A stretch of DNA of 18,636 nt. Source: a virus (Duplodnaviria > Heunggongvirae > Uroviricota > Caudoviricetes). The stretch lies in IMG/VR virus record IMGVR_UViG_2690316267_000010; one strand, written 5' to 3'. The position numbers and the translations under genes are program-made. The notes below the pieces were generated by a model, which had not been told where the DNA came from, ran no database searches, and worked only from the letters and a program-made list of their open reading frames with translations. This document shows, piece by piece, positions 7,959-12,237 of this stretch (the first letter of the stretch is position 1; each line of letters begins with the position of its first letter).

Positions 7959-8966
7959 TCACCCCCTGAATCCTTCCGGGATCTGGCTGTAGTCCACGTT
8001 GTCGTAACTGGCTTTGAAGTACGGGTCCTCGCGTCTGGCTGCAGATACCGCAGGAACTTCCCAGGATTCTTCGAAATGACGATCCGGACCAAAGAACGTC
8101 GACGCCTGCTTCACGAACTGGGTACCGGTATTTCCAGAGACACGCACCCAGGCGGCATAGCGTTTCACACCGTCGAGCATGGTTTCGGGTGTCACACCTT
8201 CCCTGATTCGGGCTTTCCAGGCTTTAAAAGCGGCGGATTTTGAATTACCACCAGCACGTTTGGGATATTCCTGCCAGGCCTGTTCAAATTCCGGTGAATA
8301 TTCCTGTCTGGCAGAACGCGCTGGTGCAGACGCGTCAGCGGATGCGCCAATAGTGTTTTTAGTCTCCGTTGTAATCTCTGTAGTAATCTCTGTAGTAATC
8401 TCTGTAGTAATCTCTGTATTTGTATCAACATTCGGCGTATCCCCTGTTCCGTTATGACGTCGGGGGGTGTTCCGTTTTAACGTAATAGCTGTATCGCTGA
8501 TTGCATTATTGCTGTTACTTTCTGGCGAAACAGAAGAAGGTGTGGTGATGGCCGCAATTGCCTGTGGGTTGATCCCGACAAACAAAATATTGCTGCATTT
8601 CACCCCATCGAGCATTTCCACCGTGCGTAAATCCAGAGTAATAAACCCTGCATCGCGCAGACGCTTCAGCGCATCTGCGGTTTCCCTTTTCCCGAAACCA
8701 AACTGCTCAGCAAACGCCTGGTAGCTTCTTTGCAGTTTGTCGCCCTGAAAACGCTTGCGATATCCCAGCAACGCTCCGGTGTGCTCATCCCTGACCTCTG
8801 TCGGGCGGTACCAGTAAACGATCTCTGAAAGCAGAGCGATAGCCGTCGCATCCGGACGCCCACTGGGTAGTCGAATATATTTCCACCAGGTCGCAGGTGT
8901 AACATTGCCGGAAATATTAATTTGACCAATAGCCATAACTTCCGGTGTGGGGGCGTAACGGCTCAT
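7959..8966 (-). CDS. Putative replication-initiation protein (lambda O-like domain organisation)
   Basis: ATG with GGAAGGAGG RBS; N-terminal domain, central TEITTEITTEITTEITTE linker encoded by 12-bp DNA repeats, and a conserved-looking C-terminal domain (EFEQAWQEYPKRAGGNSKSAAFKAWKARIREGVTPETMLDGVKRYAAWV). Position in the operon matches a replication gene. Confidence 0.5.
   Translation of the reverse strand: MSRYAPTPEVMAIGQINISGNVTPATWWKYIRLPSGRPDATAIALLSEIVYWYRPTEVRDEHTGALLGYRKRFQGDKLQRSYQAFAEQFGFGKRETADALKRLRDAGFITLDLRTVEMLDGVKCSNILFVGINPQAIAAITTPSSVSPESNSNNAISDTAITLKRNTPRRHNGTGDTPNVDTNTEITTEITTEITTEITTETKNTIGASADASAPARSARQEYSPEFEQAWQEYPKRAGGNSKSAAFKAWKARIREGVTPETMLDGVKRYAAWVRVSGNTGTQFVKQASTFFGPDRHFEESWEVPAVSAARREDPYFKASYDNVDYSQIPEGFRG
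8371..8418. repeat. Four perfect tandem copies of a 12-bp unit (GTAATCTCTGTA); candidate origin iterons inside the O-like gene
   Basis: Directly visible at 8371-8382, 8383-8394, 8395-8406, 8407-8418, with a degenerate copy upstream (TCTCCGTT). Confidence 0.6.
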
Positions 8967-9262
8967 ACAACCTCCTTCCGCAGCATGAGAATTGTGTAGC
9001 CACGCGCAGGTTGTAGTCTGGCTTTTGCATCAATAGTAAGCGTTGCAATTTTTCGGATATGAAGATAACCAGCTCTTTCCAGTGCCAGGGTTTCCCTGAA
9101 TATCGCTTGCTTAGAACAACAGCAGAAATCAGCAAGCACCTGATGATCAATAACTCTCTCGCCTTCACCGTCTGAAGAACCCGACATCAAAACACGCAAC
9201 ATAATCAGGCGCTGAATCGGGTTATCGAAAGCACATCCGCACACAAACTGAAAACAGTTCAC
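8963..9262 (-). CDS. Hypothetical protein (99 aa), possible winged-helix DNA-binding
   Basis: GTG start with GGGAGGTG RBS; GTGA overlap with the upstream gene; HTH-like segment QVLADFCCCSKQAIFRETLALERAGYLHIRK. Confidence 0.45.
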   Translation of the reverse strand: MNCFQFVCGCAFDNPIQRLIMLRVLMSGSSDGEGERVIDHQVLADFCCCSKQAIFRETLALERAGYLHIRKIATLTIDAKARLQPARGYTILMLRKEVV

Positions 9263-11544: not shown

Positions 11545-12237
11545 ATGAACATAGGAAACCGAGTCAGACAACTTCGCCAGGCGAAGAACATGAAAATCGC
11601 CGATCTCGCTGAAGCAATAGGAGTGGATGCGGCGAATATCTCACGCCTGGAAACAGGTAAGCAGAAACAATTCACTGAACAAGCCCTGAGTAATATTGCC
11701 AGGAGCTTAGGTGTTGATATTGCTGATCTCTTTACCTCAGACGTCAAAAGTAATACTGTATGTAAAAACAGTATTAGTGAGGATGTTGCGCAGGTGAAGG
11801 ATGTATTCCGTATTGAAATGCTGGATGTCAGTGCCAGTGCGGGAAATGGCCTTATCCAGGGCGGTGATGTCATTGATGTGATTCATGCCATTGAATACAG
11901 AACTGATAATGCTGTATCGATGTTTGGCGGACGGCCAGCCAATCACATTAAAGTTATCAACGTTCGTGGGGACAGTATGTGTCCAACCATTGAGCCAGGA
12001 GATCTCATCTTCGTTGATGTCAGTATCAATCAGTTTGATGGAGATGGTATCTATGTATTTGGTTTTGATGATAAAATTTATGTCAAACGACTGCAAATGA
12101 TACCTGACAAACTACTGGTGATTTCTGATAACCAGATTTACCGTGAATGGGGAATTACCAGCGAAAATGAACACCGGTTTATGGTCTTTGGAAAGGTCTT
12201 AATCAGCCAGTCACAAACCCTTAAGCGACACAATTAA
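11545..12237 (+). CDS. CI-type prophage repressor (N-terminal HTH + C-terminal LexA/S24 peptidase-like domain)
   Basis: 230 aa; N-terminal XRE HTH (KIADLAEAIGVDAANISRLETGK); C-terminal S24-like region with GDSM (Ser) and downstream KR (FVDVS...YVKRL). Confidence 0.85.
   Translation: MNIGNRVRQLRQAKNMKIADLAEAIGVDAANISRLETGKQKQFTEQALSNIARSLGVDIADLFTSDVKSNTVCKNSISEDVAQVKDVFRIEMLDVSASAGNGLIQGGDVIDVIHAIEYRTDNAVSMFGGRPANHIKVINVRGDSMCPTIEPGDLIFVDVSINQFDGDGIYVFGFDDKIYVKRLQMIPDKLLVISDNQIYREWGITSENEHRFMVFGKVLISQSQTLKRHN

What the first reader, a model, noticed from the sequence alone, without database searches (positions are those of the whole stretch)
8371..8418. Four perfect 12-bp tandem repeats inside the putative replication gene (candidate ori iterons)
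Lambdoid origins lie within the O gene as iterons bound by the O N-terminal domain. Here GTAATCTCTGTA is repeated four times exactly, with a degenerate fifth copy, in the middle of the O-like gene, where it encodes a TEIT-repeat linker. A 12-bp unit is shorter than lambda's 19-bp iterons, and no obviously AT-rich segment follows, so the repeat may instead be a hypervariable linker.
Basis: partly seen in the sequence, partly recalled or inferred. Interest (0 to 1): 0.5.

Follow-up and report, generated by a model that had tools for sequence, protein, structure and literature searches.

The report
Conserved 12-mer array in phage origin
The four 12-base repeats are real and belong to a replication origin hidden inside a prophage's initiator gene, but they are probably the origin's shared DNA-opening segment rather than the initiator's own binding sites, and the same 12 bases recur in thousands of phage initiator genes across bacterial phyla.

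Summary
There are four exact copies of GTAATCTCTGTA at 8371-8418, with an 8/12 fifth copy at 8359-8370. They lie in a 335-aa replication-initiator gene (7959-8966, minus strand) of an E. coli lambdoid prophage.

The repeat is a DNA-level element, not just a sloppy linker. In homologues from other phyla, synonymous third codon positions of the unit are 84-96% fixed. The only free position is a second codon position, which changes the amino acid.

The 12-mers are probably not the initiator-specific iterons. Directly upstream lie repeats spaced 22-23 bp apart with the core ACGTTnnAACGT (8427-8483). At least 18 initiator N-domain subfamilies each have their own such iterons, yet all are followed by the same TACAGAGAnTAC array.

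The array occupies the position of lambda's AT-rich tract and is the least stable stretch of the gene. The peptide it encodes is predicted to be disordered. Copy number runs from 1 to 4 among close relatives, most often 2.

Best reading: a lambda/SPP1-type origin inside the initiator gene, with the array as a sequence-specific unwinding or helicase-entry element. This is inferred, not shown. What reads the 12-mer is unknown.

The parts
7959..8966 (-). Replication initiator gene (335 aa) of a lambdoid E. coli prophage. It holds the whole origin-like region.
   Evidence: ORF, translation. PHROG 270 'replication initiation protein' at 3e-77. Homologues are named 'replication protein'. It sits after the cro/cII/Rha-like genes and before the Dam, RusA and KilA-N genes.
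8535..8966 (-). Coding region for the N-terminal winged-helix-like domain (aa 1-144), the presumed iteron-binding domain.
   Evidence: AlphaFold2 pLDDT is about 85-96 over aa 11-140. The best PDB fold matches are winged-helix proteins (TFIIE, MarR, CodY), all weak at E>=0.008. The family has 2337 cluster representatives.
8307..8534 (-). Coding region for the disordered interdomain linker (aa 145-220). All the repeats lie inside it.
   Evidence: pLDDT is below 50 for aa 145-220.
8468..8483 (.). Iteron 1: coding sense ACGTTAAAACGGAACA. The core 8472-8483 matches ACGTTnnAACGT with 1 mismatch and starts 65 bp before the array.
8445..8460 (.). Iteron 2: coding sense ACGTCATAACGGAACA. The core 8449-8460 has 2 mismatches. 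It lies 23 bp from iteron 1, so the two are read in different frames (KRNT versus HNGT).
8427..8438 (.). Degenerate third iteron core (ACGCCGAATGTT), at the family's fixed distance of 20 bp before the first 12-mer.
   Evidence: The position is inferred from the register seen in relatives. As a sequence match it is weak.
8371..8418 (.). Four exact tandem 12-mers (coding sense TACAGAGATTAC). This is the shared origin module and the proposed unwinding or helicase-entry element.
   Evidence: Nucleotide-level conservation. Least stable 36-bp stretch of the gene.
8359..8370 (.). Degenerate fifth unit (AACGGAGACTAA, 8/12). It is present in all close relatives whatever their copy number.
7959..8306 (-). 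Coding region for the C-terminal helical domain (aa 221-335). It is an exchangeable module, 88% identical to SfV orf39, cdtI, mEp460 and Stx2c phage replication proteins. It is presumed to recruit the helicase.
   Evidence: PHROG 26426, 1701 and 9327.

Best explanation
Window 8359-8483 is a replication origin embedded in the initiator gene, built like lambda ori and SPP1 oriL. Its upstream part (8427-8483) holds two to three initiator-specific iterons with a dyad-symmetric core (ACGTTnnAACGT) spaced 22-23 bp apart. Dimers of the initiator's winged-helix N-domain are expected to bind these. The 12-mer array (8371-8418, plus the degenerate unit at 8359-8370) is a conserved module shared by many initiator subfamilies and sits where lambda has its AT-rich tract. 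I propose that it is the segment that melts when the iteron-bound initiator distorts supercoiled DNA, and that the replicative helicase is brought in there through the exchangeable C-domain. Its strict sequence suggests that something recognises it, probably as single-stranded DNA, by analogy with the 13-mers of oriC and RK2. Shown: the repeat, its nucleotide-level conservation, its independence from iteron type, its low duplex stability, the disorder of the encoded peptide, and the copy-number range. Inferred: binding, melting, helicase loading, and origin function itself.
For: 1. Selection acts on the DNA, not on the peptide.
- Between Enterobacterales and Firmicutes, codon identity given an identical amino acid is 36% in the N-domain (992/2776) but 78% in the TEIT block (269/343).
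- A logo of 56 units from 20 loci collected by protein similarity gives T.95 A.98 C.98 A.91 G.79 A.98 G.84 A1.0 n T.96 A.95 C.71. The third codon positions are fixed, and the only free position is a second codon position.
- Firmicute N-domains use GAA for 82% of their Glu codons, yet the block uses GAG.

2. Family-specific iterons lie next to the array.
- ACGTTnnAACGT occurs 2-6 times at 22-23 bp spacing in Serratia, Yersinia and Xenorhabdus and in Geobacillus phage PT9.1, Acinetobacter phage IME-AB2 and others.
- In at least 11 loci the last core starts exactly 20 bp before the first 12-mer. The copies are read in three frames.
- Both motifs occur only in the rep gene in the complete genomes of PT9.1 and IME-AB2.

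3. The array is independent of iteron type.
- An exact DNA scan of IMG/VR gave at least 120 loci, all inside initiator-like ORFs in the same reading frame.
- These fall into at least 18 N-domain subfamilies, each with its own upstream repeats.
- In a second subfamily collected by protein only, 80 of 80 loci carry the array behind GGGCAAATTGCCC-type iterons.
- The presumed recognition helices differ between subfamilies, and so do the C-domains.

4. The position matches lambda and SPP1.
- Lambda has four iterons spaced 20-24 bp apart, followed by a 40-bp AT-rich tract (PMC5043065, PMC7466680).
- SPP1 oriL has repeats plus an AT-rich unwinding element inside gene 38 (PMC5737612, PMC6316719).
- Flavobacterium phage Fpv5 has a plain AT-rich Asn/Lys-coding stretch at this place instead.

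5. Physical properties fit an unwinding element.
- The array is the least stable 36-bp stretch of the gene: -39.2 kcal/mol against a mean of -50.1 (sd 3.8).
- In 89 of 104 distinct loci it is among the 5% least stable stretches within 500 bp either side.
- As a single strand it has no predicted secondary structure.

6. Initiators are known to bind single-stranded unwinding elements: lambda O, and RK2 and F Rep (PMC5043065, PMC7466680).
Against: - There is no experiment. Binding, melting and origin activity are all inferred.
- At 65% A+T the array is only moderately AT-rich. Such strict sequence conservation is more than a passive unwinding element needs, and is what one expects of a protein-binding site.
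- All N-domain subfamilies are remotely homologous and share one helix, so a common double-strand contact by the initiator cannot be excluded.
- SPP1's initiator-bound boxes are themselves tandem repeats of about 11 bp.
- The window's own iterons are degenerate (1, 2 and 4 or more mismatches to the core), and single cores at up to 2 mismatches occur about once per 2 kb by chance.
- Some close E. coli and Shigella relatives keep only one exact unit plus the degenerate one.
- Part of the cross-family evidence comes from loci picked by the DNA motif itself. mitigate this.
- Some members lack the array: Aaphi23, Fpv5 and Staphylococcus phage P954.
- The prophage may be defective, and no helicase or helicase-loader gene lies next to the rep gene.
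Confidence: 0.6

Rival explanations
1. The 12-mers are themselves iterons, that is, double-stranded binding sites of the initiator N-domain. They could act alone or as a second site class beside the palindromic repeats.
For: The 12-mer is conserved as strictly as a protein-binding site. SPP1 G38P binds tandem boxes of about 11 bp inside its own gene (PMC5737612). All N-domain subfamilies that carry the array are remote homologues with a shared helix, LLSQIVYW. The array always travels with the N-domain when C-domains are exchanged.
Against: The same 12-mer accompanies at least 18 N-domain subfamilies whose presumed recognition helices differ and which each have their own dyad-symmetric repeats at two-turn spacing. 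The 12-mer has no dyad symmetry. A 12-bp period would put successive sites on different faces of the helix. The array occupies the position of lambda's AT-rich tract, not of its iterons.
Confidence: 0.2
2. The conserved element works through the transcript or through transcription. For example, the fairly purine-rich RNA (ACAGAGA) could form an R-loop or a pause that opens or primes the origin, in the manner of transcriptional activation of lambda ori.
For: Conservation at synonymous sites fits RNA as well as DNA. The array is always transcribed in the same sense as part of the initiator mRNA. Lambda ori needs transcription through or near it, and its AT-rich tract is strongly strand-asymmetric (PMC5043065).
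Against: Nothing in Rfam matches. The strand has no predicted structure. Purine bias is modest, at 7-8 of 12 bases. No promoter-like or terminator-like signals lie in or beside the array.
Confidence: 0.07
3. The array is a conserved module-boundary sequence that persists because it promotes homologous exchange between N-domain/iteron modules and C-domain modules of different phages.
For: C-domains are exchanged within about 30 nt downstream of the array. The lambda record marks recombination points right after its AT-rich tract.
Against: The flanks have diverged to 36-45% amino-acid identity while the 12-mer stays almost invariant across phyla. That requires direct purifying selection in each lineage, which a benefit from occasional recombination is unlikely to supply. 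A run of 24-48 bp is very short for homologous recombination.
Confidence: 0.05
4. The repeat is only a slippage-prone coding repeat that makes a flexible Thr/Glu-rich linker and has no function as DNA.
For: Copy number is 1, 2, 3 or 4 among proteins that are more than 87% identical, with identical flanks. The 3-copy allele occurs on two flank backgrounds. The encoded segment is predicted to be disordered.
Against: Third codon positions are 84-96% fixed across phyla, while an amino-acid-changing second position is free. Codon identity is 78% against a 36% background. Firmicute copies use GAG despite a GAA preference.
Confidence: 0.03

Closest known systems
Bacteriophage lambda ori (four iterons plus a 40-bp AT-rich tract inside gene O)
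   Same: The origin lies in the middle of the initiator gene, in the part that encodes the interdomain linker. Its repeats have dyad symmetry and lie about two helical turns apart (lambda 20/24/23 bp; here 22-23 bp). Downstream in the coding direction they are followed by a stretch of about 40-50 bp of low stability. The N-domain and its iterons are exchanged as one unit, and the C-domain as another. The gene occupies the same place in the early operon (PMC5043065, PMC7466680).
   Different: The initiator is not a Pfam Phage_rep_O member and the iteron sequence is unrelated. The low-stability segment is a tandem 12-mer of fixed sequence rather than a purine-asymmetric AT tract. Its best register against lambda's tract is only 7/12 by my own count on the lambda sequence. 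No P-like gene follows in the window.
Bacillus phage SPP1 oriL and G38P (the 'replisome organizer')
   Same: oriL is embedded in gene 38. It consists of direct repeats (AB boxes) bound by G38P plus an adjacent AT-rich unwinding element. The gene is followed by a loader (G39P) and a DnaB-type helicase, exactly as in Geobacillus phage PT9.1, whose initiator is a homologue of the window's protein (PMC5737612, PMC6316719).
   Different: BLASTP finds no similarity between G38P and the window's protein. SPP1's repeats are GAAACGACAC-type 11-mers, and its unwinding element is a plain AT-rich Asn/Asp-coding stretch with no TACAGAGAnTAC.
Tandem 13-mers in the DNA unwinding elements of oriC and of plasmids RK2 and F
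   Same: Short AT-rich repeats lie head to tail next to the initiator-binding sites. Their sequence, not just their composition, matters, and iteron- or box-bound initiators bind them as single strands (PMC5043065).
   Different: Those elements are non-coding and specific to one replicon or host. This array lies in a reading frame, has a different sequence, and is shared by phages of several bacterial phyla. Nothing is known about who binds it.

Membership tests
Lambda/SPP1-type origin located inside the initiator gene | Lies within the gene of the replication initiator, in the segment between its DNA-binding and partner-binding domains | tested here: met
   PHROG 270 at 3e-77. Position in a lambdoid early operon. 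The repeats fall in aa 160-203, inside the disordered linker aa 145-220 that separates two folded domains.
Lambda/SPP1-type origin located inside the initiator gene | Several repeated initiator sites in helical phase, with dyad symmetry in lambda | tested here: met
   The family has 2-6 ACGTTnnAACGT cores at 22-23 bp spacing. The window has two 16-mers 23 bp apart (14/16 identical) plus a degenerate third, and all are weaker matches to the core.
Lambda/SPP1-type origin located inside the initiator gene | An adjacent easily melted (AT-rich) segment | tested here: met
   The array is 35% GC against about 50% around it. It is the least stable 36-bp stretch of the gene, about 2.8 sd from the mean.
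Lambda/SPP1-type origin located inside the initiator gene | Supports replication in cis when the initiator is supplied, and the initiator binds the repeats | not testable with these tools
   Needs a plasmid origin assay and footprinting.
Lambda O protein family (Pfam Phage_rep_O) | Sequence membership of the initiator | tested here: not met
   No Pfam or NCBIfam hit for the 335-aa protein. Only weak PHROG 391 and 678 'O-like' hits at 4e-8 and 4e-5. The fold is winged-helix-like.
Iterons (initiator-specific binding repeats), applied to the 12-mers themselves | The sequence co-varies with the initiator's DNA-binding domain | tested here: not met
   The same TACAGAGAnTAC occurs with at least 18 N-domain subfamilies that have different presumed recognition helices and different upstream repeats.
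Iterons (initiator-specific binding repeats), applied to the 12-mers themselves | Bound by the initiator as double-stranded DNA | not testable with these tools
   No binding assay or protein-DNA modelling tool is available here.
Repeat-bearing DNA unwinding element (like the oriC and RK2 13-mers) | Tandem short AT-rich repeats directly beside the initiator sites, with a conserved sequence | tested here: met
   Two to five units start 8 bp after the end of the last iteron core. The logo is conserved at 11 of 12 positions.
Repeat-bearing DNA unwinding element (like the oriC and RK2 13-mers) | Melts on initiator binding, and one strand is bound by the initiator | not testable with these tools
   Needs KMnO4 or P1 nuclease probing and single-strand binding assays.
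Neutral hypervariable coding repeat or linker | Copy number varies among close relatives, and the peptide is unstructured | tested here: met
   Among 80 close loci, 68 have 2 copies, 11 have 3 and 1 has 4. Some proteins have 1 copy. pLDDT is below 50.
Neutral hypervariable coding repeat or linker | No constraint on the nucleotide sequence beyond the encoded peptide | tested here: not met
   Synonymous positions are 84-96% fixed, and codon identity is 78% against 36%.

The most novel reading that the evidence does not exclude
TACAGAGAnTAC in tandem is a near-universal, sequence-specific origin-opening or helicase-entry (or priming) signal of a very large superfamily of phage 'replisome organizer' initiators. 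It would be shared across Pseudomonadota, Bacillota and Cyanobacteriota whatever the iteron specificity, C-domain or helicase partner. It would be read by a conserved surface of the initiator or by a universal replisome component, making it a phage counterpart of the oriC 13-mers or DnaA-trios that has gone unnoticed because it hides in a reading frame as a 'TEIT' linker.
Probability: 0.4. Interest if true: 0.8.

Novelty: new variant of a known kind. Interest (0 to 1): 0.62.

Why it matters
Origins that lie inside initiator genes are textbook for lambda and SPP1, so this window on its own is a new member of a known design. What seems not to have been described is the shared module. A full-text search found the motif only in unrelated papers, none on phage replication. 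The module is a 12-base unit fixed even at synonymous sites. It recurs behind many unrelated iteron types in phages of distant hosts. One N-domain family alone has about 2300 cluster representatives.

If the array is the opening or loading site, three things follow.
- It gives a simple sequence marker that pinpoints the origin in thousands of phage and prophage genomes.
- It separates the 'specificity' part of phage origins from the 'mechanics' part in a way that swap and recoding experiments can test directly.
- It poses a sharp question: which conserved protein surface or replisome component reads this sequence?

It is also a clean example of a DNA signal dictating a protein linker rather than the reverse.

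Tried and rejected
- Pfam and NCBIfam gave no hit for the initiator.
- A sequence search of the PDB gave nothing. The Foldseek PDB search gave only weak winged-helix matches, so the fold assignment is tentative.
- SPP1 G38P was tested as a homologue. No similarity was found, so it is kept as an analogue only.
- Lambda's AT-rich tract was compared with the 12-mer. The best register is 7/12, too weak to claim homology, so only positional equivalence is claimed.
- No Rfam family matches. Promoter-like and terminator-like signals are at chance level. The single strand has no significant fold, z = -0.7.
- Other copies of either motif were sought as a possible second origin or operator. None turned up in the window, in the complete genomes of PT9.1 and IME-AB2, or in the IMG/VR stretches.
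- Clustering the N-domains at 30% identity joined everything into one group, so 50% was used to define subfamilies.
- Literature searches for the motif strings and for general descriptions found no paper on this array. The main review of phage replication modules is not in the library, so prior description cannot be excluded.
- A DnaA-box reading of the array was considered and dropped (about 5/9 matches by eye).
- The primase-trinucleotide idea (CTA and CTG in every unit) would arise by chance about 1 time in 10. It is left as a note only.
Full report
**The observation**

The window holds four exact head-to-tail copies of GTAATCTCTGTA at 8371-8418. No other match occurs in the 18.6 kb even with one mismatch, against 0.06 expected. 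Tandem Repeats Finder reports 8363-8418, period 12, 4.7 copies. A fifth unit at 8359-8370 matches 8/12. The repeats lie in a 335-codon ORF on the minus strand (7959-8966), where they encode TEITTEITTEITTEITTET.

**The gene and its setting**

- Pfam and NCBIfam do not recognise the protein.
- PHROG 270 'replication initiation protein' matches at 3e-77. The C-terminal third matches several 'replication protein', 'DnaD-like' and 'primosomal' PHROGs.
- The neighbours are those of a lambdoid early-right operon. Upstream are an HTH_3 (Cro-like) gene, a CII-like gene and a Rha/Ash gene. Downstream are Dam, RusA, KilA-N and DUF968 genes.
- The best genomic match is a prophage of E. coli G1/2 at 99.8% identity, with yfdN/P/Q/R-type neighbours.
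- The last 114 residues are 88% identical to the replication proteins of SfV, cdtI, mEp460 and Stx2c phages, whose N-terminal parts are different. The protein is therefore modular.
- AlphaFold2 gives a confident N-domain (aa 1-144), a disordered stretch (aa 145-220, pLDDT below 50) and a helical C-domain.
- The N-domain's best PDB matches are winged-helix proteins, all weak.
- Everything discussed below is encoded within the disordered stretch.

**Copy number**

Among proteins more than 87% identical to the query, the TEIT unit occurs once, twice (by far the commonest) or four times. Among 80 close IMG/VR loci, 68 have two exact units, 11 have three and one has four. Flanks are identical, and the three-copy allele occurs on two flank backgrounds, as expected for recurrent slippage.

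**Selection acts on the DNA**

I collected homologues by protein patterns in the N-domain, so they were not chosen for the repeat. They came from Serratia, Yersinia, Rosenbergiella, Xenorhabdus, Arsenophonus and Providencia. They also came from Syntrophomonas, Caldanaerobacter, Peribacillus and other Firmicutes with only 36-45% N-domain identity. Nearly all carry the same nucleotides at the same place. So do cultured phages: Geobacillus PT9.1, Acinetobacter IME-AB2 and qsb1, Bacillus Athena, Exiguobacterium EauM-23 and, in degenerate form, Eggerthella LE2-3.

- Between Enterobacterales and Firmicutes, an identical amino acid is encoded by the identical codon in 36% of N-domain cases (992/2776) but in 78% of cases in the TEIT block (269/343).
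- A logo of 56 units from 20 such loci reads T.95 A.98 C.98 A.91 G.79 A.98 G.84 A1.0 n T.96 A.95 C.71.
- In codon terms, the synonymous third positions are 84-96% fixed.
- The single free position is a second codon position, which switches the residue among Ile, Thr, Asn and Ser.

This is the reverse of what selection on a peptide produces. The 'merely a hypervariable linker' reading is therefore rejected, even though copy number does vary.

Just upstream in the coding direction the window has TGTTCCGTTATGACGT (8445-8460) and TGTTCCGTTTTAACGT (8468-8483). They are 14/16 identical and 23 bp apart, so they are read in two frames, KRNT and HNGT. In relatives this resolves into a dyad-symmetric core, ACGTTnnAACGT, repeated 2-6 times every 22-23 bp. 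The last core starts exactly 20 bp before the first 12-mer. In PT9.1, four perfect copies are translated in three frames as MTLERQG, CDVETSG, VLRSNVRG and VTLERQ. In the complete genomes of PT9.1 and IME-AB2, both motif types occur only here.

Dyad symmetry, two-turn phasing, frame-independence and uniqueness in the genome are the hallmarks of initiator-binding iterons. Lambda's own iterons are spaced 20, 24 and 23 bp apart and bind O dimers (PMC5043065). In the window the cores are weaker: 1, 2 and 4 or more mismatches at 8472-8483, 8449-8460 and 8427-8438. A single core at up to 2 mismatches is not rare by chance. Their identification rests on register and on the family.

**The 12-mer is shared across iteron types**

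All lie in initiator-like ORFs in the T-E-x-T frame, yet only 67 have the window's N-domain. The rest fall into at least 17 further N-domain subfamilies at less than 50% identity. Each has its own repeats at 21-23 bp spacing directly in front of the same array. Examples are GAGGGCAAATTGCCCTC, CCAACAAGTTGG, GGTCAAAAACGACC, CTTAACAATGGA, GGCGGAAAGCGCCAA and GTTCCACAGTGAAAC.

To remove the ascertainment bias, I collected one of these subfamilies by protein only. All 80 of 80 loci carry 3-5 units in the same frame, behind GGGCAAATTGCCC-type iterons that themselves vary.

- The N-domains are remote homologues that share one helix (LLSQIVYW) but differ in the presumed recognition helix.
- C-domains differ as well: Phg_2220_C, lambda-O-C-like, SfV-type and others.
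- Named phages with a clear array include Synechococcus Ssp-JY37, Burkholderia DC1 and E. coli mEp460_4F5.
- Lactobacillus mv4 has a degenerate array.
- Aaphi23 and Staphylococcus P954 essentially lack it.
- Flavobacterium Fpv5, like SPP1, has a plain AT-rich Asn/Lys-coding stretch at that place.

The window's N-domain family alone has 2337 representatives at 50% clustering. Of the 132 best full-length ones, 80 show a TxxT-repeat peptide at the expected position, and many of the rest show degenerate versions.

**What the array most likely does**

The array sits where lambda has its 40-bp AT-rich tract, immediately after the last iteron and before the C-domain. In lambda that tract melts when O binds the iterons on supercoiled DNA, and O and P then contact the single strands (PMC5043065, PMC7466680). 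SPP1 oriL has the same plan inside gene 38 (PMC5737612, PMC6316719).

- The array is the least stable 36-bp stretch of the window's rep gene, at -39.2 kcal/mol against a mean of -50.1 (sd 3.8).
- In 89 of 104 distinct loci it is among the 5% least stable stretches within 500 bp either side.
- As a single strand it has no predicted structure.

I therefore read window 8359-8483 as a bipartite origin. The subfamily-specific iterons are bound by the winged-helix N-domain. The shared 12-mer array is where the duplex opens and the helicase is brought in through the exchangeable C-domain. Its strict sequence implies a reader, by analogy with the oriC and RK2 13-mers that initiators bind as single strands (PMC5043065). 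None of binding, melting or origin activity has been shown.

**Rivals**

SPP1's bound boxes are short tandem repeats, and the N-domains share ancestry. Against it are the independence from iteron type, the lack of dyad symmetry and the 12-bp period.
- An RNA- or transcription-based role fits synonymous conservation but has no positive support.
- A recombination-linker role fits the module junction just after the array. It cannot explain near-invariance across phyla.
- A neutral linker is contradicted by the codon pattern.

**Novelty and caveats**

As a locus, this is a new member of the lambda/SPP1 kind of intragenic origin. The shared, frame-embedded 12-mer module appears to be undescribed. 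No phage-related paper in the searchable library holds the motif strings, and general searches found nothing on it. The principal review of phage replication modules is not held, so prior description cannot be excluded.

Other caveats:
- The prophage may be defective.
- No helicase or helicase-loader gene lies beside the rep gene in the window.
- The window's iterons are degenerate.
- Part of the cross-family evidence was selected by the motif itself.

Noticed in passing
window 8963-9262 (-): A 99-aa ORF overlaps the initiator's start codon (ATGA). It matches only the N-terminal part (positions 3-93 of 223) of PHROG 4617 'replication initiation protein' at 4e-29. It looks like the remnant or N-domain of a different initiator, left in front of the complete one.
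   Followed up: partly
window 4999-7959: No helicase or helicase-loader gene follows the initiator gene. The next genes are Dam methylase, RusA, KilA-N and DUF968. Relatives such as PT9.1, IME-AB2, Athena and DC1 have G39P-like, DnaB or DnaC-like genes next to it. The SfV-type C-domain may recruit host DnaB-DnaC directly.
   Followed up: no
window about 8322-8345 (peptide GASADASA), and homologues P0006-P0017: A second small coding repeat lies just after the array. It varies among close relatives between DASADASA and GASADASA, with occasional loss of residues.
   Followed up: no
L110, L124 (IMG/VR loci): Some initiators that carry the array have an HNH nuclease domain inserted between the N-domain and the iterons (Pfam HNH at 2e-8 and 4e-9).
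   Followed up: no
proteins P0079, P0139: Both read the same DNA repeat in another frame as QRLLQRLL. They are apparently frameshifted or truncated copies of the initiator gene.
   Followed up: no
window 11865-11894: A 9-bp tandem repeat, TGATGTCAT x3.3 (76% matches), lies near the divergent repressor/cro-like region. It could be operator-related or chance.
   Followed up: no
L229 (lambda) 558-567 = lambda 39157-39166: The lambda record marks two recombination points immediately after the AT-rich tract of ori. This is the same relative place where C-domains are exchanged after the 12-mer array in this family.
   Followed up: no
window 8371-8418, every unit: Each 12-mer carries 5'-CTA-3' on the coding strand and 5'-CTG-3' on the other strand. 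From memory, these are the preferred start trinucleotides of Firmicute and E. coli DnaG primases. By chance this would occur about 1 time in 10, so it is speculative.
   Followed up: no
window 7909-7959, compared with L001 8510-9004: In the near-identical E. coli G1/2 prophage a 164-aa yfdN (PerC family) gene follows the initiator gene. The window has no ORF of 50 aa or more starting there, and the Dam-like ORF is longer (232 aa). This looks like a local rearrangement or deletion.
   Followed up: no
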